Part shown: positions 4,260 through 32,382 of the stretch, piece by piece
Layout of the letters: each line of letters opens with the position of its first letter
Numbering within the stretch: position 1 is the first letter of the stretch
Origin: Acidobacteriota bacterium
GTDB taxonomy: Bacteria > Acidobacteriota > UBA6911 > RPQK01 > JAJDTT01
Assembly (NCBI GenBank): GCA_965263035.1
Contig: OZ253580.1
Span: 672,001-736,000 of the forward strand
Length of the DNA: 64,000 nucleotides
Direction of reading: 5' to 3'
Position numbers and translations under genes: made by a program
The notes under the pieces: generated by a model
Database searches by the model: none
What the model was told of the DNA's origin: nothing
Seen by the model: the letters and a program-made list of their open reading frames with translations, nothing else

Positions 4260-6577
4260 GCGAAGAGACCGTCCTCGATCAGTTGATCTCCAGTCTTCGA
4301 TCCAAGGGTACACCCATCGACGGCCAAGACCGACCGGCCGCCATCCTCTGGACCGACCCGAAGCGGGAGTGGGTGCCGCTGATCGAACTGTTATTGCAAC
4401 GCGTCGGTGAATTTCTCGTCCTGGGAGATTACCAACCCGAGCGGCGCACCGGTCCCGCCGTCTGGGTACGCTGCGTCGTCGACCGCGCCGTCGACGAGCC
4501 TGATCTCCCCGCTGATCGACCGCCGATCGTTTACCTGCCTGACGTTGCGCGCCAGCAGCTCCGCGCCGGGACGGTGTGCCCGGACCGGTTGAAGCCGATG
4601 GTGGAGCTTCTGTTTCGGGGCGCACTCTGGCATCACCCCAACGGCAACGACTGGACGGTGAACGCCTACTTGACTTCACGATCTACCCTGGCCCTTGACA
4701 TCGCCGGTGATCGGGCGACCAGCGACGCGCTGCTGCGAGCGTTGTCCGAGGTGGCCCTCAGCCCGGTGAAACATCTCGCACGCCGTCACCTGGCGGCAGA
4801 CGACTTCGATCGTATGCTCGCCGGCGACGTTGTCAGAGACCTCCTGAGGTGGATGGGGGACCCGGACGGCGCGCGGAACCGCTTGGGATCGAACGAATGG
4901 GAAGCCTTCTGCAGCCGTTGCCGGGACGAGCTGGAGTTCGATCCGGCGACGGAGGCGGATGTCGTCGCAGGCGGGCTTATGGCTCAGGGCGAGGGCCCGT
5001 GGTCGGCAGTGTGGGACCGTTTCGCCGAGGCACCCCGTAGCTACGGCGACATTTCCGGACTACTTCGGCGCAGCAAACCGTCCGGCGGATTCCGCTTCGA
5101 ACGTGAACGATGGCCTGACCTGAATGACGAGGATGAGGAAACCGTTCGGCGCAGGCTCATCGCGATACCGACGCTCTTGCACGATGAGGCTTGCGAGACG
5201 GTCATCGGACTCGAAGAGAACCATGGCGTACGCCGGAAGTGGGTCTGGGCTCGCATGGGGTCGGCTCCAATGGCACGGGTCTTGACGCCTCTCTCCAATC
5301 TTGCCAAGGGGGCGCGGAATGCCTTGGGAGGAACGACCCCCGATGATGTGGCCCAAGCCTATCTCGATCGGGGCTGGCAAGCGGACCTTGGAGCGTGGGA
5401 GACGTTGGCCATCGCGCCGTATGAAGACGAAGAGTGGATCAAAGCGACCGTACGCCACCTCCTTGAGCCGTGGCTCGAGGACTCGGCGCGAGCGTTTCAG
5501 ACAGCGGTCGAGCGAGCATCCCTGCCAAGTCGCGGCGATCAGCCGACCGTAGTGGCTGCAGATGACGGCTGCATCCTGTTCGCCGACGGGCTGCGGTTCG
5601 ACTTGGCACAACGTCTGGCGGAGCGGCTGGAAGGCCATGGTCTCCGCGTTGAGTTGGACCGGCGGTGGGCGGCGCTGCCGACGGTTACGGCTACGGCGAA
5701 ACCGGCGGTGACTCCAGTTGCAGAGCAGGTCGAGGGCGACATGCTCGATCCCGCGTTCGGCGTACGGTTGAAGACCAGCGGGAAACCGGCTGACGCATCG
5801 GGTCTCCGCGCGGCGATGGAGGCACATGGGTATCAACTCGTTGGCGGCTCCGGCTCGTACGCGCCTCGTTCCCATCCGGCACGCGGCTGGCTTGAAATGG
5901 GAGCGTTCGACAGGCGTGGTCACCAGATGGGGGTTGGGGTCGCGCGCCAACTGGGCAACGAAATTAAGCGTGTGGCGGAACGGATCATCCGTGTCCTCGA
6001 CGCTGGATGGAACACGGTGCGCGTCGTTACGGATCACGGGTGGCTGCTGTTGCCGGGAGGGCTTCCGAAGGTGGGCCTACCGAAGCACTTGACCGAGAGC
6101 AGTTGGGCTCGTTGCGCAGTCATCGCGGGTGAGTCGACGCCTGACGTCACCCGTGCCCCATGGCACTGGAACAGCTCACAGTGGTTTGCGACGGCGCCCG
6201 GTATCGCCTGCTTCAACAAATCCGATGAATACGCCCACGGCGGGTTGAGCATTCAGGAATGCCTCATCCCGGATCTCCTCGTGACACGCGGAGGTGAGAC
6301 GAAGTCGACCGGCCGCGTCAAGTCGCTGACTTGGCGAGGCCTGCGCTGTTTCATCGAATCCGAGGTCCGTGGCGGGCCAGTGACCGCCGACCTTCGGCTG
6401 AATCGACCGAACGGTGAATCGGTTGCAGCGACGCCGAAGCTCCTCGACACCGAGGGGACCGTCAGCTTGGTCCTAGCCGATGACGAGCATGAAACTGCAG
6501 CGCTGGTTCTGGTTCTGCTGGATGAAGCGGGCGGGATCTTGACCCATCAATCGACTCGAGTGGGAGTGGACACATGA
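4256..6577 (+). CDS. pglZ: BREX system PglZ phosphatase-domain protein (type B-like)
   Basis: N-terminal AAILWTDP...LGDYQPERRTGPAVWVRC; PglZ motifs ADGLRFD, LPTVT, VVTDHG, YAHGGLSIQE; directly upstream of brxL. Confidence 0.9.
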   Translation: MSEETVLDQLISSLRSKGTPIDGQDRPAAILWTDPKREWVPLIELLLQRVGEFLVLGDYQPERRTGPAVWVRCVVDRAVDEPDLPADRPPIVYLPDVARQQLRAGTVCPDRLKPMVELLFRGALWHHPNGNDWTVNAYLTSRSTLALDIAGDRATSDALLRALSEVALSPVKHLARRHLAADDFDRMLAGDVVRDLLRWMGDPDGARNRLGSNEWEAFCSRCRDELEFDPATEADVVAGGLMAQGEGPWSAVWDRFAEAPRSYGDISGLLRRSKPSGGFRFERERWPDLNDEDEETVRRRLIAIPTLLHDEACETVIGLEENHGVRRKWVWARMGSAPMARVLTPLSNLAKGARNALGGTTPDDVAQAYLDRGWQADLGAWETLAIAPYEDEEWIKATVRHLLEPWLEDSARAFQTAVERASLPSRGDQPTVVAADDGCILFADGLRFDLAQRLAERLEGHGLRVELDRRWAALPTVTATAKPAVTPVAEQVEGDMLDPAFGVRLKTSGKPADASGLRAAMEAHGYQLVGGSGSYAPRSHPARGWLEMGAFDRRGHQMGVGVARQLGNEIKRVAERIIRVLDAGWNTVRVVTDHGWLLLPGGLPKVGLPKHLTESSWARCAVIAGESTPDVTRAPWHWNSSQWFATAPGIACFNKSDEYAHGGLSIQECLIPDLLVTRGGETKSTGRVKSLTWRGLRCFIESEVRGGPVTADLRLNRPNGESVAATPKLLDTEGTVSLVLADDEHETAALVLVLLDEAGGILTHQSTRVGVDT

Positions 6578-8634
6578 CTCAGTCCGTAGAGATGGATCAC
6601 CTGGACAACATCGCCGCGAGCGCATTTCCAGGCTATCTGGTCCGTAAGGACCTGGTTCGACGCTACGCGCGCCAATACCCCGTTCCGACCTATGTCGTGG
6701 AATTCCTCCTCGGGCGCTACTGCGCGAGCGTTGACGAGGAAGAGATCGAGGAGGGGTTGGCCATTGTAGAAAAGCAGCTCCAAGGCCGGACGGTCCGGAC
6801 GAGTGATCGCGAGATCTTCAAGTCACGGGCGCGGGAGCGTGGTTCCGTCAAGCTGATCGATATCGTTCGTGCGCGCTTGGACGCTCGGAACGACTGTTAC
6901 GTCGCCGAGCTTCCGAGTCTGCATCTGAAGGACGTCCAGGTCGCAGATTCCATTGTCAAAGACAACGAGAGGATGCTCGCAGACGGATTCTACGCGGAGG
7001 TCAAACTCACGTACGACCCCATCACAGCCCAGGAGAAAAAAGGCCGACCGTTTCACATCGGCCTGCTGCGCCCGATTCAGATGTCGAACCCGCACGTACT
7101 CGACGTTCTGGCCGCGGGGCGCCAAGCATTTGATACGGAGCAGTGGCGTGACTTTCTGATCCGCTCCACCGGCCTCGAACCTGAAGCGTTGGGAGAGCGG
7201 GCGAAACGGGTCGCCTTGCTGCGTATGGTTCCATTCGTCGAACGCAACTACAACCTGGTCGAACTCGGTCCTCGCGGGACGGGCAAGAGCCACGTTTACC
7301 AGCAGATCTCGCCATACTCCCATTTGCTTTCAGGCGGCAAAGCCACGGTTGCCAAGATGTTCGTCAACATGGCGAACGGTCGTCGTGGCCTGGTCTGCCA
7401 ATACGATGTCCTCTGCTTCGACGAGATCGCCGGAATCTCCTTTGACCAGAAGGACGGTGTCAACATCATGAAGGGCTACATGGCCGCCGGTGAGTTCAGC
7501 CGGGGAAAGGAGAGCATCCGTGCCGAGGGTTCCATCGTGATGGTCGGCAATTTCGACGTCGATGTTGAGCAACAGCAGCGGATTGGACATCTCCTGAGCC
7601 CGCTACCCAAGCAGATGCGCGACGACACCGCGTTTCACGATCGGATACACTCCTACGCCTCCGGATGGGACTTCCCCAAACTCAATCCCAACGAGCACCT
7701 GACCCATCACTTCGGACTCGTGAGCGACTTCCTGAGCGAATGCTGGTCACGGATGCGTCAGACCAGCCGTCTCACAACGCTGCAGAACCGTGCGTTTTGG
7801 GGTGGGGCTCTTTCGGGCCGCGACATCGAGGCCGTGCACAAGACTACGTCCGGGCTGATCAAGTTGCTGTATCCGGACCCGGAGATGCCCGTTCCCGACG
7901 AAGAGCTCGAGTGGATTCTTCGCTTGGCGTTGGAGTCACGCCGCCGGGTCAAGGAGCAGCAGAAGCGTTGCCTCAAGAGTGAATTCAGAAACACACATTT
8001 CTCGTTCACGCTTGGGGTTGACGGTGTCGAGCAATTTGTCGCGACCCCGGAGCTGCACAGTGACGAGGCTATCGACTCGGACCCGTTGCCTCCCGGGCAA
8101 GTCTGGGCGGTGGGACCGGGTAGCGCTGAAGCGGGAGTCGGACTTTATCGAATCGAGGTGGCCGTCGGTCCAGGAGGAGGCAGCAAGATCCTGAACCAGC
8201 CATCGCCCCCGGCGTTCCGGCAGAGCGTGAAGGTGGGTGAGCAGAATCTCTACGCCCGTGCCAAGGAGCTGGTGGGGAATCGCGATCCCCGCTCCCACGA
8301 ATATACGATCCAACTTCGTCCGTTCGATGCGGACAAATCGGGCACAGGACTGGGCCTCCCGGTCCTGGTGGCTTGTGTCGGCTCGCTTTTGGAACGGAGC
8401 ACACGCGGTGGCGCCATCATCGTGGGACCGCTCAACCTGGGTGGATCCCTTGACCTGATCTACAACCCGATCGCAATAGCGGAGTTGGCGGTGGACAAGC
8501 AGGCCGCCACACTGCTCATGCCCGTGTCGTCCCGGCGTTCCCTCATCGACCTCCCCGATGAGCTATGGACCAAGATCAACATCGAGTTCTACAGCGATCC
8601 CGCTGATGGCGTCTTCAAGGCGCTTCTGGACTGA
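6574..8634 (+). CDS. brxL: BREX system Lon-like AAA+ protein BrxL
   Basis: VPTYVVEFLLGRYC; ELGPRGTGKSH (Walker A); FDE (Walker B); DTAFHDRIH; Lon-like C-terminal domain; ATGA overlap with pglZ. Confidence 0.92.
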   Translation: MTQSVEMDHLDNIAASAFPGYLVRKDLVRRYARQYPVPTYVVEFLLGRYCASVDEEEIEEGLAIVEKQLQGRTVRTSDREIFKSRARERGSVKLIDIVRARLDARNDCYVAELPSLHLKDVQVADSIVKDNERMLADGFYAEVKLTYDPITAQEKKGRPFHIGLLRPIQMSNPHVLDVLAAGRQAFDTEQWRDFLIRSTGLEPEALGERAKRVALLRMVPFVERNYNLVELGPRGTGKSHVYQQISPYSHLLSGGKATVAKMFVNMANGRRGLVCQYDVLCFDEIAGISFDQKDGVNIMKGYMAAGEFSRGKESIRAEGSIVMVGNFDVDVEQQQRIGHLLSPLPKQMRDDTAFHDRIHSYASGWDFPKLNPNEHLTHHFGLVSDFLSECWSRMRQTSRLTTLQNRAFWGGALSGRDIEAVHKTTSGLIKLLYPDPEMPVPDEELEWILRLALESRRRVKEQQKRCLKSEFRNTHFSFTLGVDGVEQFVATPELHSDEAIDSDPLPPGQVWAVGPGSAEAGVGLYRIEVAVGPGGGSKILNQPSPPAFRQSVKVGEQNLYARAKELVGNRDPRSHEYTIQLRPFDADKSGTGLGLPVLVACVGSLLERSTRGGAIIVGPLNLGGSLDLIYNPIAIAELAVDKQAATLLMPVSSRRSLIDLPDELWTKINIEFYSDPADGVFKALLD

Positions 8635-8734
8635 AGACCTCGCCGCCGTCCAGACGGATTACGCTGGGACAGCCGCAGTCGCTGTACAGCCGGAATCTTC
8701 AGGGGCCGCTTCTTGCTCCGATTCGGACCGAAGA

Positions 8735-9402
8735 GGGCACCCACAAGGTCGCGGTAGGGACGCCGGTTGCCCAGCGCCCCCCCGCGCAGATCCGTGCGTG
8801 CCCGCTAAGGCACACGGCTCCTACTTCAGGTAATGACGGCGGGTCGTGACACCCGCCATATCCGACCCCCACCTGGGTCACGGCTGCCCGGCTCTGAGTC
8901 CGGTCCGTGCTTTGGTGTGCCGAATTCCCCTTGGTTCCACCCCTTCGCTCCACCGACTCCGCAGAGAGTTCCCCCTCCTTGTTCGCCCGCTTCATCACTA
9001 CTATGGGTGAATCCGATTGCTTCCTCTCTCCCCTCATGGGTTACGGCTTTCTCCTTTCTCACAAGGCCCCGGCTCTCGCCGGGGGAGAGAAAGCCCTCCC
9101 AGGTCCCGACACAAGACGTACGTGCGTGCTTGGATTCCTCGACACCGCGGAGCCCGACTGGCCCTCACCTTCCCGGTCCAGCCGGTATTGCCTTCGACCG
9201 CACCCACAGCCTCGGCACTTCCGTTCATGTAGGTTTCGATGCTCCATAGCCCCGCCCACACGCGCCGCTACCGATGCTTCGCCGACACCCTCACGAGTGC
9301 CGACGCACGGCTCGCGGAGAAACGTGGATGGTTACTCCTTCGTTTCAGCGGACTTTCACCGCTTGTCTTGTGCCAGTTAGCCTGGCACACGGGCACCCCT
9401 AC
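8735..9402 (-). repeat. GTAG-type REP palindrome interrupted by the intron
   Basis: Joining the flanks gives GTAGGGGTGCCC|CTTGTGGGTGCCC, homologous to the intact GTAGGGGCGCCCCTTGCGGGCGCC at 58059-58082. Confidence 0.8.
8748..9390 (-). mobile_element. ORF-less group II intron (ribozyme), IIB-like bacterial class
   Basis: Minus strand begins GTGTG (GUGYG) at 9390. Domain V GAGCCGTGTGCCTTAGCGGGCACGCACGGATC (8820-8789) has the AGC triad; domain VI ends TCCCTACCGCGAC at 8748. Domain IV is reduced to a short hairpin with no RT ORF. Confidence 0.9.
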
Positions 9403-9446
9403 CAAAATTTCTTCGTACAATTGCACAAGATTTTGGGAATAAGGAA

Positions 9447-12400
9447 CTAACCTGGCGCATCCTGAGGGGCAGGATCCAGGGATGACGACGGGTCGCTGGC
9501 TTGCCAGCTCCGCCTGAGCCACATGGTCAAGTCGTCGAAGAGGGTGTAGTAGGTGGGCAGCACCACCAGAGTCAGCACCGTGGAGGCGATGAGACCCCCC
9601 ATGACGGTGCGGGCCATGGGAAAGTACCGCATGTCGAACAGGCTGCTGTAACTGTAGGCCAGCGGGATCAGGCCCACCACCGTGGTGGTCGCCGTCATCA
9701 CGATGGGACGAAAACGATCGCGGCAACCCTCCAGAATGGCGCGGCGACGGTCGATGCCCCGGCGGCGAAGGGTGTTGATATGGTCGATGAGGACGATGCC
9801 GTTGTTCACCACGATGCCGATGAGCACCAGGCATCCGATCTTGGCCATCAGATTGAAGGGCGTCCCGGTGATGAGCAGAAAGCCGGCGATTCCCACCACC
9901 GAAAAGGGCAGCGAGAGCATGATGGCCAGGGGATGAGTCAGGGATTCGAACAGCGCGGCCATGACGAAGTAGACCATGAAGAGCGCCAGCAGGATGTTGA
10001 AGATCCACTCTTGATTCTGCTGCTGGCCCCGTCTGGTCCAGAAACCCAGCGACCACCCATAGCCGTCCGGGTAGTCCAACCCATCCATGACCGCCTTCAC
10101 TTGCTCGATGCCCTCGTCCCTCTTGTCTCCCGTGTAGGTGACGAAGAGGTTGGAATAGGTCTGCCGATCCTCCCTCTGGAGCCGTGCCGCCACCTTCTCG
10201 ACCCGAAGGTCGGCGACCTGAGACAAGAGAATCTCCTCACCCTCGTCTCCATAACCCACCACCGCCGCGCGCAGGTCCTCCAGTCCACTCCGATCCTCCG
10301 GCCGTAGCCGGATGATGACATCCACCTCCCCCTCCGCCGTGCGAAAGCCCCGAACTTGCCGGCCTCGCATCAGGATGCCCAGAATCTCGGAGACGGATTG
10401 GGAGGAGACGCCGTAGCGGCGGGCCAGATCCCGGCGCAAGCGGATCTGAACCTCCTCGCGCGTGCTGTCCCGAGGCGCCGACACCTGGGAAAAGTCCTGG
10501 TGTTCCCGAAGGCGGGTCCGGGCCTCACGCAGCAGTCCGTCCAGGACTCGATGATCGTCGCCATAGAGGCTCACATTGATCCCTTCCCGATTCTGCCTTC
10601 CACTCTGGCCGGACAACTCGATCCGGCAACCCGGTATCACGGGGAGACCGCTCGAGATCTTCCGGCGGATCTCCTCCATCTCTTCCAGCCCGACCTCATC
10701 GCCATGGAAATAGATTTCGGTCGACGCATTGTTGTTGGAGAAGGAACTGAAGACCTGGTCGATCTTGAAGGCCTCCCTGTTCTCCGCAAGAAAGGACTCG
10801 ACCGGATCGACGTAGTCCTTCTCGATCTTGGCGTAGTGATAGTTCTCGGTGAATTCATACCGGATCTGGAAGCTGCCCGGCTCCTGAGCGTCGGGAGCGT
10901 TGTCGGGAACCAGGTTGAGAAGCATCCAGCCGGAGCCGGCGACCGCCAGCGGAACCAGCAGGCCCCCGACCAGGACCCGGTGTCTCAGGGGCCAGGCGAC
11001 GAGTCTCAGGTAGAAATCCATGATCCGCCAGAGGTCCGGTTCCCGCCGTTCCCCGGCGCCCGGCCCGTCATCGCCACCTCCGGTGGGCGACGGTTTGGCG
11101 GCGGCGGGACCCACGTCCAGCTTCAGGAAGCGTCCCATGGCCACTGGGATCAGGGTCAGAGAGAGAAACAGGGAACAAAGGAGTGCGAAGATGATGGCCA
11201 GTCCACAGTGGCGAAGCCAGAAGCTGAGAAAGCTCTCGGCGCCAAAGACCAGGGGAACGAAAATGATGATGGAAGTGAGGGTGGCTGCAATCACCGCCAT
11301 TTGCACCTCCTGGGTTCCCCGTTTGACCGCCTCCAGGCGATCCACACCCTGCTCCAGTTTCCGATAGATCGATTCCAGCACCACGATGGCATTGTCCACC
11401 AGCATTCCGGTGGCCAGCATGAGGCCCATCATGGAGAGGACGTTCAGGCTCAGGCCTCCGAAATACAGGAACCCGACACTCCCGACCAGCGAGAAGGGGA
11501 TGGCCAGAGCGACCGCCATGGCCGCCCTCCATTTGCGAAGGAAGAGGATCAGAACGCCTAGAGCCAGGAGTGCGCCTACGGTCCCGGCCGTGAGGAGACC
11601 CTTGAGGGCCTTGACGATCTCGTCGCCGGCGTTCCGGAGGTATTCGAACTGGATTCCCTTCAAGGCGGGATCCGACCTGATCTTCTCCAACTCCTCCTCC
11701 ACACCTCGCACCGTCGTGACAGTGTTGGCCTCGGCGGCCTTGCGAACCCAGAGCCCCACCGCGTACTCGCCGTTGAGGTGCTGGCTGGCATGGGCCACGG
11801 GACTCTCGTAGCTCACATTGGCGACGTTCTCCAGCCGAAGGCCCCGCTCGTTCACGGGGAAGACTTTGAAGTCCGTCAGAGACCGGAACATTCCCCGGGT
11901 CATGGCTCCGTAGCGGACTCCGCCGTCCGTGAACCTGCCCAGGGAGCGGTCCAGGTTGATGCCGGACAGGTTTCGGAAGAGCCGGCCCACGTCCACCCGG
12001 TACCTTCTGAGTTCATCCAGACGCAGATACACGCCGATTTCGGGTCTCTGGGTTCCGAAGAGCTCCGCTTCGGCCACCCCCGGGACCCGTTCGATCCGTC
12101 TTCTGACCTTCAGGTCCAGAAACTCGTAGGCGGTCTGCAAGTTCCTCCCGGACGCGATCCGCAGTCCCAGGATGGGCTGGTCGTCGGTACTGAAGTTGAC
12201 CACCTCGATCCGCTCCACGTCTTCCGGAAGCTCACCGCGGATCCGCTCCACCTTCTCCCTGACCTCTCCGCGGAGCCGTTGCACGTCCATTCCCATGTCG
12301 AAGAAGGTTTGTACCCCGGCCATGCCGCTGCTGGAGAAAGACTGCATCCATTGAACTCCAGAGACCGTGCTCACGACCTCTTCCACCGGTTTGGTAATGG

Positions 12401-12641
12401 TCTCCAGGACGTGAGCCGGCGTGGCGTTGGGATAGGGGACCCGCACCATCACAAAGGGGAAGTCCAGGTTGGGAAACAACACCAGGGGAATCTTGAACAG
12501 GGACACCACTCCGACCAGGAGCAGCAAGGAAAAAACGGCACAGATGGTCACCGGATAGCGGACCGAGAAACTGGCCAGCGCCGACGAGTTCGCGCGGCCA
12601 ATCGGATTCGATGACGAGTTCGGCTTCCGGTCAACCTGCAT
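9447..12641 (-). CDS. RND efflux permease (AcrB/AcrD/AcrF family), subunit 2
   Basis: RYPVT N-terminus, GMLVDNAIVVLE, GIVVNNGIVLID, RFRPIVMT. The ATG at 12641 lies 11 nt inside the 3' end of the upstream gene. Confidence 0.92.
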   Translation of the reverse strand: MQVDRKPNSSSNPIGRANSSALASFSVRYPVTICAVFSLLLLVGVVSLFKIPLVLFPNLDFPFVMVRVPYPNATPAHVLETITKPVEEVVSTVSGVQWMQSFSSSGMAGVQTFFDMGMDVQRLRGEVREKVERIRGELPEDVERIEVVNFSTDDQPILGLRIASGRNLQTAYEFLDLKVRRRIERVPGVAEAELFGTQRPEIGVYLRLDELRRYRVDVGRLFRNLSGINLDRSLGRFTDGGVRYGAMTRGMFRSLTDFKVFPVNERGLRLENVANVSYESPVAHASQHLNGEYAVGLWVRKAAEANTVTTVRGVEEELEKIRSDPALKGIQFEYLRNAGDEIVKALKGLLTAGTVGALLALGVLILFLRKWRAAMAVALAIPFSLVGSVGFLYFGGLSLNVLSMMGLMLATGMLVDNAIVVLESIYRKLEQGVDRLEAVKRGTQEVQMAVIAATLTSIIIFVPLVFGAESFLSFWLRHCGLAIIFALLCSLFLSLTLIPVAMGRFLKLDVGPAAAKPSPTGGGDDGPGAGERREPDLWRIMDFYLRLVAWPLRHRVLVGGLLVPLAVAGSGWMLLNLVPDNAPDAQEPGSFQIRYEFTENYHYAKIEKDYVDPVESFLAENREAFKIDQVFSSFSNNNASTEIYFHGDEVGLEEMEEIRRKISSGLPVIPGCRIELSGQSGRQNREGINVSLYGDDHRVLDGLLREARTRLREHQDFSQVSAPRDSTREEVQIRLRRDLARRYGVSSQSVSEILGILMRGRQVRGFRTAEGEVDVIIRLRPEDRSGLEDLRAAVVGYGDEGEEILLSQVADLRVEKVAARLQREDRQTYSNLFVTYTGDKRDEGIEQVKAVMDGLDYPDGYGWSLGFWTRRGQQQNQEWIFNILLALFMVYFVMAALFESLTHPLAIMLSLPFSVVGIAGFLLITGTPFNLMAKIGCLVLIGIVVNNGIVLIDHINTLRRRGIDRRRAILEGCRDRFRPIVMTATTTVVGLIPLAYSYSSLFDMRYFPMARTVMGGLIASTVLTLVVLPTYYTLFDDLTMWLRRSWQASDPSSSLDPAPQDAPG

Positions 12642-15600
12642 TTCTGGATGGCTCCGCCTTTCGGTCCAGGCCCTCATAAAGCACTGGCACCAGGATCAAT
12701 GTCAGGAGCGTGGCGAAGAGCAGTCCGCCCATGACGGTGACGGCCATGGGGGCTCGCACCTCCGATCCCTCGCCCCAACCCAGGGACATGGGAAGCAGTC
12801 CCAAAACAGTCGTCAGGGTGGTCATGAGGATGGGCCGCAGCCGCACTCGCCCCGCCTCGACCAGGGCCTCCCGGCGACCCAACCCCGTGCGGCGGAGTTG
12901 ATTGGTGTAGTCGATCAGGACGATTCCGTTGTTGACCACGATCCCGACCAGGATGATCACGCCCAGCAAGACCATGACGCTGACGGTGGATCCGGTCACG
13001 AAAAGGGCGGCCACCACACCGACCAGGGCCACCGGCACCGTGAACAGGATGACGAGCGGGTGGACCAGGGACTCGAATTGCGACGCCATCACCAGATAGA
13101 CCAGGAGTACCGCCAGAGCCAGGGCGAAGAGCAGACTGCTCCGGGAACGGTCGTACTCCTGGTGTTGCCCCCCCAGAGTCACCACCGCATCGGGCGGTAG
13201 CTCCCGGGACATGCCGGAGAGTTCGGCCTCGATCTGCCGGGAGACGGTGCCCAGGTCGGCGCCCGTCAAGTTGGCCGAAACCACGGCCGCGCGTTGGGAA
13301 CCCATCCGGCGTATCTCACCGGGTCCCCGCGACAACTGCACCTGGGCCACGGATCCCAACCGGATCGGCACTTGGGAATTCTCTTCCTCGCTGTCGGATT
13401 CCACCTCAGTCCGCGCCGGATTCGAATTGGACTGCGTTCCACCCGCGCCGAAGCGGGAACCTCCCACGCCGGACCGCGCGGTGTCTGCGGCGCCACCCCG
13501 GTTCCCGCCGGCGCCGTCCATCCGAGTGTTGATGACTAGATCGCGAATATCCTGAATCGCGTTCCGATCCGATTCGGCCGCCTGGACGAGAATGTCGAGC
13601 TGTCTCTCCTGGTCCCGGTAGCGAGAGGCCACCTCGCCGCGGATCTTGCTCCTCAGGATCTCAGCCGCCTGACCTTCGTCCAGGCCCAGCCGAGCCAATT
13701 GCTCCCGCCGAAACCTGATCTGGACCTCGGGGTTCCCCAATCGGGTCGAACTCTGAACATCGGCCAAGCCGTCGATCCCGGAAAGCCGAGCCATCACTTT
13801 CTCGGCGATGCTCCGCTGCTCCGCGAGGTCGTAGCTGTAGATCTCCACCTCCACCGGCTGTCTGAAGCTGAACAGGGTGGGACGGCCGAACAGGTGGGTA
13901 AGTCCCGGATATTGTCCCAGCAGACTCCTGGTGCGGCCGATCACACGCTCCTCGCCCGCCTTGTCGCGGCCGTCCTGCATGGAGACGTGAATCCAGCCCC
14001 GGTGCTCCTCGAGCGGACCCGTCGCGAACTGGTCATCGGCCCCTCCTCCCACGCTGGAGAAGACGGTGTCCACCCCGTCCAGCGCCAACACCTGGCTCTC
14101 GACCTCCCGGATGATCCGATCGGTCTCTTCCAAAGGCTTTCCTTGGGGAAGCTGGATCTCAAAGGAGAACTTTCCCTGAACCAGGGATGGGATCAACTCG
14201 GTGCCGAGGAACTGGGCCAAACCGGCGCTGACACCCACCAGGCCCAAGGTGAGAGCCAATACGCTCCCCTTGTGGTCGAGAGACCAGGCCAGGAAGCGGG
14301 GATAGGTTCGCCGCAGAGACTCGAAGCCGGAATCGAACCGCCCCAGCAAGGGGTTCAGGGGTATCAGCAGGCCTCTCCCCAGAGTCCTGAGCAAACGTCT
14401 CAGGTCGCCAACGACGACGAGAATCAGATCCACGGTGAGGAACTTCCAGACCCGCGCCCCGCCGCGTCCCGCGGCTCGGAACAGACGCGCCAGCCGGGCT
14501 TCCTCGCCGCCTGCCGCCGGGACCTGCCCGTTGCCGGACCGGGGGACCGGTTCCACCGCGATCCGCCGCCGGGACAGGAGCATGGGAATGACGGTGAGGG
14601 CGACGGCCAGGGAGGCGAGGAGGGAGTAGGTGATGGTCAGGGCCTGATCCTTGAAGAGCTGGCCCGCAATCCCCTCCACGAAGATCAGGGGCAGAAAGAC
14701 GGCCACCGTGGTCAAAGTCGACGCCGCCACGGCCTGCCCCACCTCTCGGGTGCCCTGATAGACGGCCTCCGCCAAGTCCCGGTTCCGCCTTCGGTGCCGG
14801 TGGATCGATTCCAGCACCACGATGGAATTGTCCACCAGCATGCCGACTCCCAAGGCCACTCCGCCCAGCGACATGATGTTCAGGGTCACGCCGGTCTGGT
14901 ACATCAAGGTAAACGTGGCCATGACGGAAATCGGGATGGAGAGGCCGATGGTGGCGGTGCTGCGAAGGTCCCGAAGAAAGACGAACAGGACGAACGTCGC
15001 CAGCAATCCTCCCAGGAGGGCCGCCGCCGCCACGTTCCGGACCGCCAGACTGATGAACTGCGCCTGGTCGTAGACGATCTCGTGGGTCAACTCGCCGGGA
15101 TAGGTCTTCTGCTGCTTGAGCTTCTCCAGGCGTTCTCTCACCGCCTCGGAAACCGCCACCGCGTTGGCGTCGCCTTCCTTGTAGATGCGCAGCTCCACAC
15201 TCTCCCGGCCGTTGAAGCGGGATATGACCTCCCGCTCCTTGGTCCCCCGCCAGACTCTGGCCACGTCTCCCAGAACCACTTGGCGTCCATCCAGATTCCG
15301 AACGATGAGGTTCCGAATCTCCTCGACCGATTGGAACTCGTTGAGCACCCGGACCAGATAGTTGGCGTCCAGGTCATACAGGCTCCCGCTCGCCTGATTG
15401 AGGTTCGCCTCGCGAATGACGCTGCTGACCTCGCTGATTGGAAGGTTCAGCTCGGCCAGCCGTTTCTCGTCGATCTCGATCCGGATCTGCTCCTCGCGGC
15501 CGCCGGCCACTTTGACCGCCGCCACTCCCGAAGTCGATTCCAGACCTTGCTTCACCTTTCGCTCCGCCAGGTCCCGGACTCGGCTGAGGGGGGCGTCCCC

Positions 15601-30150: not shown

Positions 30151-30344
30151 GGGGCAGAGGTCGAAAGATCCTCCTCGTCCTCCAGGTGAACGGGGGTGTC
30201 AGCCGGTCCCGGAGTCGCATTCATGATGCCACAGACGACTGCTAAATCGAGGTTATCGGGTTGACGCCGGCGGTGGTCTCTTGAAAGCGCCCCGTTGCTC
30301 CGATAACATGATCGGTTGAGTCCCGGCTTGCGGGCCCGAGACCA

Positions 30345-32382
<2,038 letters not shown>

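What the first reader, a model, noticed from the sequence alone, without database searches (positions are those of the whole stretch)
8748..9390. Complete 643-nt group II intron ribozyme with no intron-encoded protein
Seen: the GUGUG 5' end, DI-DIII-like segments, DV with the AGC triad and DVI ending CCUACCGCGAC are all present. DIV keeps only what look like the IEP start (GTG ACC CAG) and stop (GCC GTC ATT ACC TGA) around a neat hairpin GGCGGGT-GTCACG-ACCCGCC (8838-8857). It lies 56 nt after the RND operon stop on the same strand, so read-through could transcribe it. Known: most bacterial group II introns encode an RT, and ORF-less ones need an IEP in trans. Inference: a streamlined non-autonomous retroelement rather than a random deletion.
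Basis: partly seen in the sequence, partly recalled or inferred. Interest (0 to 1): 0.8.

Follow-up and report, generated by a model that had tools for sequence, protein, structure and literature searches.

The report
ORF-less group II intron in REP hairpin
This is a real, structurally complete group II intron that has lost its reverse-transcriptase gene; it is one of seven copies that sit inside small palindromic repeats of an uncultured acidobacterial genome, and that genome no longer holds the matching protein.

Summary
It lies on the minus strand: 643 nt, 5' GUGUG at 9390, 3' ...CCUACCGCGAC at 8748, 56 nt after an AcrB-type gene. Rfam group-II-D1D4-6 scores 155 bits (cut-off 49). DV/DVI scores 35 bits, just under its cut-off of 40.

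The genome holds 7 full copies and one 67-nt fragment. Sister species carry 1.9-kb parents with a 447-aa RT/maturase that lacks an endonuclease domain. The ORF-less form is a clean ~1.27-kb deletion in DIV. All ORF-less copies share the breakpoints and form one clade (100/100), so the deletion arose once and the product then spread.

EBS1, EBS2 and EBS3 co-vary with the flanking exons. There are six EBS1 variants, and EBS3-IBS3 is Watson-Crick in 34 of 36 elements. Every copy sits at the 5'-arm/loop border of a REP-like hairpin, and one such REP lies next to a RAYT-type gene.

The cognate RT is not in this chromosome; the best matches are 36-37% identical. Many perfect empty target sites remain unoccupied.

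This parallels the Thermosynechococcus TeI3 ORF-less introns: a new member of a known kind. The twists are REP homing and the orphan state. Splicing was not shown.

The parts
8748..9390 (-). ORF-less group II intron, 643 nt (copy c1)
   Evidence: Sequence. Rfam hits. Boundaries fixed by intron-less paralogous sites.
9386..9390 (-). 5' splice-site motif GUGUG (the other six copies have GUGCG)
9099..9385 (-). Domain I (approximate). Rfam D1D4-6 covers 9133-9356.
   Evidence: 155.4 bits. Closing helix from the RNAalifold consensus.
9229..9233 (-). EBS2 CCUAC, pairs with IBS2 GUAGG
   Evidence: 5 of 5 pairs. It co-varies with GCUCC/GGAGC and CAUGC/GCAUG in other copies.
9200..9205 (-). EBS1 GGGUGC, pairs with IBS1 GUGCCC (4 Watson-Crick + 2 G-U)
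   Evidence: The same EBS1 pairs perfectly with GCACCC in three related copies.
9140..9140 (-). EBS3 (G), pairs with the first base of the 3' exon (C, 8747)
   Evidence: EBS3-IBS3 is Watson-Crick in 34 of 36 elements, with three pair types.
9015..9098 (-). Domain II (approximate)
   Evidence: RNAalifold consensus.
8933..9014 (-). Domain III (approximate)
   Evidence: RNAalifold consensus.
8821..8932 (-). Domain IV remnant. It holds a DIVa-like stem 8909-8879 with GUG at 8881-8879, and the deletion-junction hairpin 8857-8838.
   Evidence: Alignment with the 1912-nt parent. Fold.
8789..8820 (-). Domain V. AGC triad at 8819-8817, 2-nt bulge. G opposite A where G-U is usual.
8750..8786 (-). Domain VI with bulged A at 8755 (putative branch point)
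9391..9402 (-). 5' exon target: IBS2 (9402-9398), spacer G (9397), IBS1 (9396-9391). This is the 5' arm of a REP-like hairpin.
8735..8747 (-). 3' exon: IBS3 (8747), hairpin loop, and 3' arm GGGUGCCC (8742-8735)
9447..12677 (-). AcrB-family RND transporter gene. It is the last gene of an MFP-RND-RND operon, upstream on the same strand.

Best explanation
The element is a structurally intact, non-autonomous (ORF-deleted) group II intron with IIB-type exon recognition.

Origin. One ancestral ~1.27-kb deletion in domain IV of a ~1.9-kb intron removed the gene for an endonuclease-less RT/maturase. It kept the ribozyme and the DIVa-like stem (shown).

Spread. The deleted form then spread in several congeneric acidobacterial genomes. 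It did so by reverse splicing into sites chosen through EBS1/2/3-IBS1/2/3 base pairing. These sites lie at the 5'-arm/loop border of REP-type hairpins. The pairing and the sites are shown. The retrohoming mechanism, and the use of the parent's protein in trans, are inferred from the Thermosynechococcus TeI3/TeI4 precedent.

State in this genome. The cognate protein gene is absent from this chromosome. The window copy is single in its specificity class although perfect empty sites exist. It is therefore most likely stranded: it may be transcribed by read-through from the RND operon and may self-splice, but it is not currently moving (inferred).
For: Ribozyme.
- RF02005 scores 155.4 bits for the window copy and 164.5-166.5 bits for the six others.
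- DV/DVI scores 35-37 bits.
- DV folds with a 2-nt bulge and DVI with a bulged A.
- Over 18 distinct ORF-less copies, 99.2% of cells in 195 predicted pairs are paired. Five pairs (20 cells) changed on both sides. At most 1 of 500 shuffles reached these values. Slid controls gave 39-43%.

Family.
- 7 full copies plus a 67-nt fragment in the genome.
- Matches in 8 of 8 congeneric genomes and 0 of 6 in the sister genus.
- Full-length 1912/1917-nt relatives carry an RVT_1 plus weak GIIM protein.
- The deletion is clean and has the same breakpoints throughout.
- In the tree, 21 ORF-less rows split from 14 full-length rows at 100/100.

Targeting.
- Six EBS1 variants each match their own IBS1. 32 of 35 scored elements have 6 of 6 pairs.
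- EBS2 pairs 5 of 5 in 19 of 35 elements and 4 of 5 in the other 16.
- EBS3-IBS3 is Watson-Crick in 34 of 36 elements.
- All sites fold as hairpins.

Stranded state.
- No RF02005 hit over the cut-off other than the 7 ORF-less copies.
- The best protein match to the cognate IEP is 36-37% identical.
- There are 153 strict empty c2-type sites and 7 exact c1-type sites.
Against: - No splicing or transcription evidence was obtained for this copy. Contigs of two RNA libraries held related copies still joined to exon sequence, and no ligated-exon joint was seen.
- c3 and c4 are identical, and so are c5 and c6, at different sites. This points to recent movement in a genome without the cognate IEP, which fits poorly with 'stranded'. 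Gene conversion or a recently lost or plasmid-borne driver would have to explain it.
- DV/DVI scores are below Rfam's gathering score, and DV has G opposite A where G-U is usual. The multi-copy full-length relatives share this.
- The consensus structure was derived from the same alignment, so its controls are lenient.
- The genome is 97% complete and plasmids may be missing.
Confidence: 0.75

Rival explanations
1. The family is still mobile in this organism. The driver would be either one of the two unrelated resident intron proteins (family A, 426-471 aa; family B, 497-515 aa) acting across families, or a cognate full-length intron on an unassembled plasmid or in a co-resident relative.
For: - c3 = c4 and c5 = c6 with 0 differences, and c2 differs by 1. 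Their flanks differ even inside the hairpin.
- Intact A and B reading frames with RVT_1 and GIIM.
- Family A ribozymes give weak RF02005 hits of 22.6-25.1 bits.
- Relaxed 'driver' IEPs are reported for T. elongatus (PMC2882425, passages).
Against: - The A and B proteins are only 36-37% identical to the cognate IEP.
- There is no nucleotide similarity between the ribozymes beyond short motifs.
- 153 and 7 perfect empty sites stay unoccupied.
Confidence: 0.15
2. The window copy is a decaying relic that no longer splices or moves, kept only because it lies in non-coding DNA.
For: - It is the most divergent copy, with 50-68 differences from the others.
- It has the lowest RF02005 score (155 against 164-166 bits).
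- It has two G-U pairs in EBS1-IBS1.
- Two of its three closest relatives carry GAGCG at the 5' end.
- It is single in its class despite 7 exact empty sites.
Against: GUGUG fits the GUGYG consensus. All EBS/IBS positions still pair. DV, DVI and the DI model are intact.
Confidence: 0.25
3. The copies spread as DNA together with the REP elements (RAYT-mediated or by recombination), not by reverse splicing.
For: All copies are embedded in REP-like hairpins. One copy lies 14 nt after a Y1_Tnp (RAYT-type) gene.
Against: - Flanks outside 12-26 nt are unrelated.
- Hairpin arms differ between identical intron copies.
- EBS1/2/3 co-vary with the flanks in six specificity classes. A DNA-level hitch-hiker would not need that.
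Confidence: 0.05

Closest known systems
Thermosynechococcus elongatus TeI3 ORF-less introns and their TeI4 drivers (Mohr et al. 2010, PMC2882425; passages read)
   Same: - One ORF deletion in DIV with identical breakpoints in all copies.
- Remnants of both ORF ends.
- Later divergence into families with different EBS.
- Good EBS/IBS pairing at the insertion sites.
- ORF-less copies as many as or more numerous than the ORF-bearing ones.
   Different: - In T. elongatus the related IEP genes are in the same genome and trans-mobilisation was shown in assays. Here the cognate IEP is absent from the chromosome and nothing was assayed.
- The TeI4h IEP schematic in that paper includes D and En domains. 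Here only RVT_1 and a weak GIIM were found in Pfam.
- Targets here are REP-type hairpins.
- The host is an uncultured acidobacterium.
C.te.I1 of Clostridium tetani, the 'sole known' independent ORF-less bacterial intron (Zimmerly and Semper 2015, PMC4424553; passages read)
   Same: An ORF-less intron in a genome without a closely related IEP.
   Different: - This genome has 7 copies, and the review does not describe C.te.I1 as a multi-copy family.
- This genome does hold two unrelated intron RT families.
- The cognate IEP exists in sister species.
Endonuclease-less lineages such as RmInt1, with insertion into the lagging-strand template (recalled; strand bias by IEP type in Miura et al. 2022, PMC8919778, passages)
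   Same: - The IEP has RT and X domains, and no endonuclease domain was found in Pfam.
- 8 of 8 copies have their sense strand on the G-rich leading strand, which means insertion into the lagging-strand template.
   Different: - The bias is not clearly beyond that of the target hairpins themselves: 113 of 153, or 74%. P is about 0.09 (my arithmetic).
- Class membership was not determined.
Class C (IIC) and attC-targeting group II introns that recognise DNA stem-loops (recalled, not read here)
   Same: Insertion sites are defined by a hairpin motif in intergenic DNA.
   Different: - Here EBS2 is present and DV is full length.
- Insertion is inside the hairpin, at the 5'-arm/loop border, and not after it.
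- Recognition is explained by base pairing. Whether the hairpin shape is also read is unknown.

Membership tests
Group II intron ribozyme | 5' GUGYG and 3' AY termini | tested here: met
   GUGUG at 9390-9386 and ...GAC at 8750-8748. The consensus itself is recalled.
Group II intron ribozyme | Domain I-IV architecture matching a curated covariance model | tested here: met
   RF02005: 155.4 bits against a cut-off of 49.
Group II intron ribozyme | Domain V with catalytic triad and bulge; domain VI with bulged A | tested here: inconclusive
   The fold shows both features. However, RF00029 scores 35.1 bits, below its gathering score of 40, and G faces A where G-U is usual.
Group II intron ribozyme | EBS1/EBS2 pair with the 5' exon | tested here: met
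   6 of 6 pairs for EBS1 and 5 of 5 for EBS2 in the window copy. Covariation across six EBS1 classes.
Group II intron ribozyme | Self-splicing or protein-assisted splicing | not testable with these tools
   No ligated-exon joint in the contigs laid. Contigs cannot show absence.
IIB-type exon recognition | EBS3 in domain I pairs with the first base of the 3' exon | tested here: met
   34 of 36 Watson-Crick: A-T 28, G-C 4, T-A 2.
Non-autonomous ORF-less derivative mobilised in trans (TeI3-like) | DIV deletion with ORF remnants, same breakpoints in all copies, single origin | tested here: met
Non-autonomous ORF-less derivative mobilised in trans (TeI3-like) | A closely related IEP-encoding intron in the same genome | tested here: not met
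   None in this chromosome. Related 1.9-kb forms are present in sister genomes: 1-537 and 3'-end matches in G002, G004, G005 and G007.
Non-autonomous ORF-less derivative mobilised in trans (TeI3-like) | Demonstrated mobilisation by an IEP in trans | not testable with these tools
   Needs a mobility assay.
Class C (IIC) hairpin-targeting introns | No EBS2, shortened DV, insertion downstream of a terminator or attC stem-loop (features recalled) | tested here: not met
   EBS2 co-varies. DV is 32-34 nt. Insertion is inside the hairpin.
REP/REPIN elements (the target) | Short palindromes in many copies, clustered, with an associated RAYT gene | tested here: met
   - 488 hairpins matching the motif, with 113 of 297 clusters holding 2-5.
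- Two Y1_Tnp hits.
- One 238-aa frame with an HVH motif, followed by the REP that holds copy c7 and then a REP array downstream.

The most novel reading that the evidence does not exclude
An orphan ORF-less group II intron family keeps moving between REP hairpins in a genome that has no cognate reverse transcriptase. Identical copies sit at different sites. This would mean either mobilisation by a protein only 36-37% identical to its own, or a largely protein-independent route: reverse splicing into single-stranded REP hairpins at replication forks, with host enzymes finishing the job. The head-to-tail intron junction seen in two sequencing runs would then be a circle or tandem intermediate.
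Probability: 0.12. Interest if true: 0.75.

Novelty: new member of a known kind. Interest (0 to 1): 0.45.

Why it matters
[quoted passage not shown] This family gives a second, independent natural case of the Thermosynechococcus pattern, in a different phylum. The pattern is: delete the ORF once, then radiate into new target specificities.

It adds two testable points:
- REP/REPIN hairpins can serve as an abundant 'safe' homing niche.
- A genome can retain seven well-kept ribozyme copies after the driver protein is gone.

The six natural EBS1/EBS2/EBS3 variants with matched targets form a ready-made series for studying retargeting and the fate of non-autonomous retroelements.

Tried and rejected
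- RNA evidence. One run search and one laying of four runs gave no ligated-exon joint and no contig spanning the RND gene into the intron. RNA-library contigs held only related copies (90-95% alike) still attached to exon-like flanks. These may be precursor RNA or DNA carry-over. All runs were contigs, so starts, ends and levels cannot be read. No conclusion on expression.
- Replication-strand bias. 8 of 8 copies are on the leading strand. The empty target hairpins are 74% in that orientation, so the excess is weak. In the table, copies in G002, G005 and G007 fall into two strand arcs each. This is my reading; I did not compute ori/ter for those genomes.
- Recent deletion of a resident intron. 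This is rejected. There is no nucleotide similarity to families A or B beyond motifs of up to 29 nt.
- Six-frame ORF coverage to ask whether the REPs are intergenic. This was uninformative, because 84% of this GC-rich genome lies in open frames of 300 codons or more.
- Intron class (A-F, CL, ML). Not determined. Plasmid searches gave ltrA-annotated relatives at 55-60% protein identity and 65-75% DNA identity, without class names.
- Small contigs labelled as other phyla (L043, L055 and others) carry 95%-identical full-length copies. I do not take them as evidence of transfer between phyla, because mis-binning is possible.
- Head-to-tail junction. It was not found in any stored locus or in the genome.
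- Supplementary files of the papers were not opened. Those of PMC2882425 and PMC8919778 may list further ORF-less families.
- Whether REP-homing group II introns are in print. Searches found none. The only item was a table entry of 2 of 9 P. putida intron copies near REPs (PMC1525189).

Full report
**What is there**

The feature reads on the minus strand of the window. It begins GUGUG at 9390 and ends ...CCUACCGCGAC at 8748, 643 nt in all. It lies 56 nt after the stop of a 1076-aa ORF (9447-12677, minus). That ORF is an AcrB-family transporter (ACR_tran, 591 bits). It is the last gene of an MFP-RND-RND operon.

Rfam's group-II-D1D4-6 model matches 9356-9133(-) end to end at 155.4 bits (cut-off 49). 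With relaxed thresholds the DV/DVI model RF00029 matches 8822-8748(-) at 35.1 bits, E 7e-5, which is below its cut-off of 40.

Folding the last 75 nt gives a DV helix with the AGC triad and a 2-nt bulge. It also gives a DVI helix with a bulged A 8 nt from the 3' end. DV has G opposite A where G-U is usual. The full-length relatives share this.

No terminator-like site lies between the RND stop and the intron on that strand.

**Copies and relatives**

The window's genome is one contig of 6.198 Mb, 62% G+C and 97% complete. It holds 7 full-length copies of this intron, 89-100% identical to the window copy, and one 67-nt 5' fragment. c3 and c4 are identical and c2 differs from them by 1 base. c5 and c6 are identical. 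c7 differs from c5 by 11. The window copy c1 differs from the others by 50-68 positions.

RF02005 exceeds its cut-off only at these seven places. Four weaker hits (22.6-34.9 bits) lie on another intron family.

The genome encodes two other group II families:
- Family A: D1D4-4 ribozyme, 426-471-aa RT. There are three intact copies, one split copy and one 5' fragment.
- Family B: D1D4-3 ribozyme, 497-515-aa RT. There are two intact copies and one degenerate copy.

There is also one unrelated 1253-aa frame with a weak RT hit. Neither A nor B shares nucleotide similarity with the ORF-less family beyond short motifs.

**Origin**

Ten of 41 related genomes matched, counting the window's own. These were 8 of 8 in the same genus, 0 of 6 in the sister genus, and one weak 3'-end match elsewhere in the order.

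In several congeners, positions 1-537 and 551/569-643 of the query match about 1.3 kb apart. These are 1912-nt and 1917-nt introns carrying a reading frame with RVT_1 (126 bits) and a weak GIIM hit (19.9 bits, below its cut-off of 23). No further Pfam domain was found.

Alignment shows that the 643-nt form is a clean deletion of about 1270 nt. The left side keeps roughly 12 codons after an in-frame GTG. The right side keeps the last 8 or so codons of the frame.

All 18 distinct ORF-less copies examined share these breakpoints. In a maximum-likelihood tree of ribozyme-only sequence, 21 ORF-less rows separate from 14 full-length rows with 100/100 support. The tree used 35 of 37 rows; L041 and L061 were left out. 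The simplest reading is one deletion followed by spread.

GTG at 8881-8879 aligns with an in-frame GTG of the full-length frame. It sits in the 3' strand of a stem (8909-8879) that looks like DIVa. This is where IEP start codons lie in studied introns (recalled).

The frame is open from intron position 336 in 11 of 12 distinct full-length copies, with ATGs at 357/360. The start is therefore not settled.

'ACC TGA' is in the homologous frame. However, the extant relatives read through it. They stop at TAA in the DV loop (1912-nt form) or at TGA in the last bases of the intron (1917-nt form).

**Target recognition**

In 36 elements with flanks, from the window's genome, congeners and related titled records, the three intron-exon pairings co-vary.

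| EBS1 | IBS1 |
|---|---|
| AGUCGC | GCGACU |
| AAUCGC | GCGAUU |
| AGUCCC | GGGACU |
| GGUCGC | GCGACC |
| GGGUGC | GCACCC |
| GGAUGC | GCAUCU |

- EBS1-IBS1: 32 of 35 scored elements have 6 of 6 pairs and 3 have 5 of 6.
- EBS2-IBS2: the pairs are GCUCC/GGAGC, CCUAC/GUAGG and CAUGC/GCAUG. 19 of 35 elements have 5 of 5 pairs and 16 have 4 of 5.
- EBS3-IBS3: EBS3 is the base after GGUGUC. It is Watson-Crick to the first 3'-exon base in 34 of 36 elements (A-U 28, G-C 4, U-A 2).

The window copy has EBS2 CCUAC, EBS1 GGGUGC and EBS3 G. Its exon reads GUAGG-G-GUGCCC|C, so every position pairs, two of them as G-U.

**The targets are REP-type hairpins**

Six of the seven copies and the fragment follow GGAG(G/C)GGCG(A/G)CU, with occasional single-base variants, and six of the seven copies precede UUCUUG(U/C)CGCC or a close variant. 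The intron therefore sits at the border of the 5' arm and the loop of a palindrome.

The genome has 153 uninterrupted sites of this strict form. It has 488 hairpins of the looser motif, and 113 of 297 clusters hold 2-5 of them.

Copy c7 is inserted in the hairpin that begins at the stop codon of a 238-aa Y1_Tnp (RAYT-type) frame. A REP array follows downstream.

The window copy uses a second repeat family, GUAGGGGCACCC|CUUGUGGGUGCCC. Seven exact intron-less copies occur in the genome, 16 within one mismatch. One of them (near 3.852 Mb) aligns with the window copy's two flanks over about 100 nt. This fixes the intron boundaries. It also shows that the 56-nt spacer after the RND gene is itself part of a dispersed repeat.

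**Structure kept under divergence**

On the 18 distinct ORF-less copies, the RNAalifold consensus has 195 pairs. 99.2% of cells are paired. Five pairs (20 cells) changed on both sides. At most 1 of 500 shuffles reached these figures, and sliding the partners gave 39-43% paired.

The structure came from the same alignment, so this is supportive and not independent. The independent test is the Rfam model, which all seven copies match at 155-166 bits.

**The missing protein**

The 447-aa cognate protein finds only the family A and B proteins in this genome, at 36-37% identity. The cognate RT is therefore absent from the chromosome.

[quoted passage not shown] They name C.te.I1 as the sole exception known to them (PMC4424553, passages).

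Two observations pull in opposite directions:
- Many perfect empty sites remain, and the window copy is single in its class. This fits a stranded element.
- Identical copies at different sites (c3/c4, c5/c6) suggest recent movement. Gene conversion, a recently lost driver, a plasmid-borne driver and cross-mobilisation all remain open.

**Orientation**

Cumulative GC skew puts the origin near 2.85 Mb and the terminus near 5.8 Mb. All 8 copies have their sense strand on the leading strand. This means insertion into the lagging-strand template, as described for endonuclease-less lineages (recalled; strand bias by IEP type in PMC8919778, passages).

The empty targets are themselves 74% in that orientation (113 of 153). 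8 of 8 therefore has P of about 0.09 (my arithmetic).

**Reads**

Of 22 runs listed, four were laid; all were contigs. One DNA-type run holds the window's flanks and intron ends without differences. Two RNA libraries hold related intron copies attached to exon-like sequence. No ligated-exon joint was seen.

Two runs of unrecorded library type show a joint from 9390 back to 8749 with one other letter between. This is a head-to-tail intron junction. It is absent from the assembled genome and from all stored loci. I cannot tell whether it is a tandem array, a circle or an assembly effect.

**Comparison and verdict**

The closest precedent is the T. elongatus TeI3/TeI4 system. [quoted passage not shown] These diverged into EBS families and were mobilised in trans by 'driver' IEPs (PMC2882425, passages). 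The present family repeats that pattern in uncultured Acidobacteriota (titles).

It differs in two respects: it homes into REP/REPIN hairpins, and in this genome it lacks the cognate IEP. My literature searches found no description of REP-homing group II introns. The only item was a table entry for P. putida.

I file it as a new member of a known kind, of moderate interest. The exceptions are that the trans-acting protein is not in this genome and that the 'stop codon' reading is only partly right.

Noticed in passing
window 9390 joined back to 8749 (reads, table 5c): Contigs of two runs of unrecorded library type join the intron's 5' end to its 3' end, with one other letter in place of the last intron base. 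The stated contig depths are about 240-270. No such tandem exists in the assembled genome or in the stored loci. It could be a circle, a tandem array or an assembly artefact.
   Followed up: partly
G000:C1:2482815-2483530 (minus), locus L078: A 238-aa frame with a Y1_Tnp hit (36 bits) and an HVH motif. It is RAYT-like. Its stop codon overlaps the IBS2 of intron copy c7, and a REP array follows downstream.
   Followed up: partly
window 9391-9450 and dispersed copies: The 56-nt spacer between the RND stop and the intron is part of a dispersed repeat of about 100 nt. The repeat holds an AT-rich palindrome plus the hairpin. It occurs many times in all nine genomes of the genus, and orthologous RND loci lack it.
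   Followed up: partly
window 8699-9037 (minus): A 112-aa ATG frame runs from domain II/III of the intron through DIV, DV and DVI into the 3' exon. Its first ~60 residues resemble the N-terminal extension of the frame in the full-length introns. It is probably a by-product of composition and RNA constraint.
   Followed up: partly
window 6574-8634 (+): The gene convergent on the intron encodes a BrxL-type Lon-like protease (BrxL_ATPase 411 bits, BrxL_N 145 bits). A BREX defence system probably ends here. The upstream 773-aa ORF has no Pfam match.
   Followed up: no
window 30341-30447 (+): TPP riboswitch, RF00059, 57.3 bits (cut-off 54.3).
   Followed up: no
G000:C1:3067562-3070030 (+), locus L003 2334-2501: A degenerate family-B (D1D4-3) intron starts about 46 nt downstream of ORF-less copy c3. 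Its middle part is only 85% like the intact copies or is replaced.
   Followed up: partly
G000:C1:5052870-5056900 (+): One family-A intron has its RT gene split by an insertion of about 2.2 kb.
   Followed up: no
loci L023 and L066 (related records): Two close relatives of the window copy begin GAGCG instead of GUGYG. They share their 5' flank, so they look like one old insertion with a damaged 5' splice site.
   Followed up: partly
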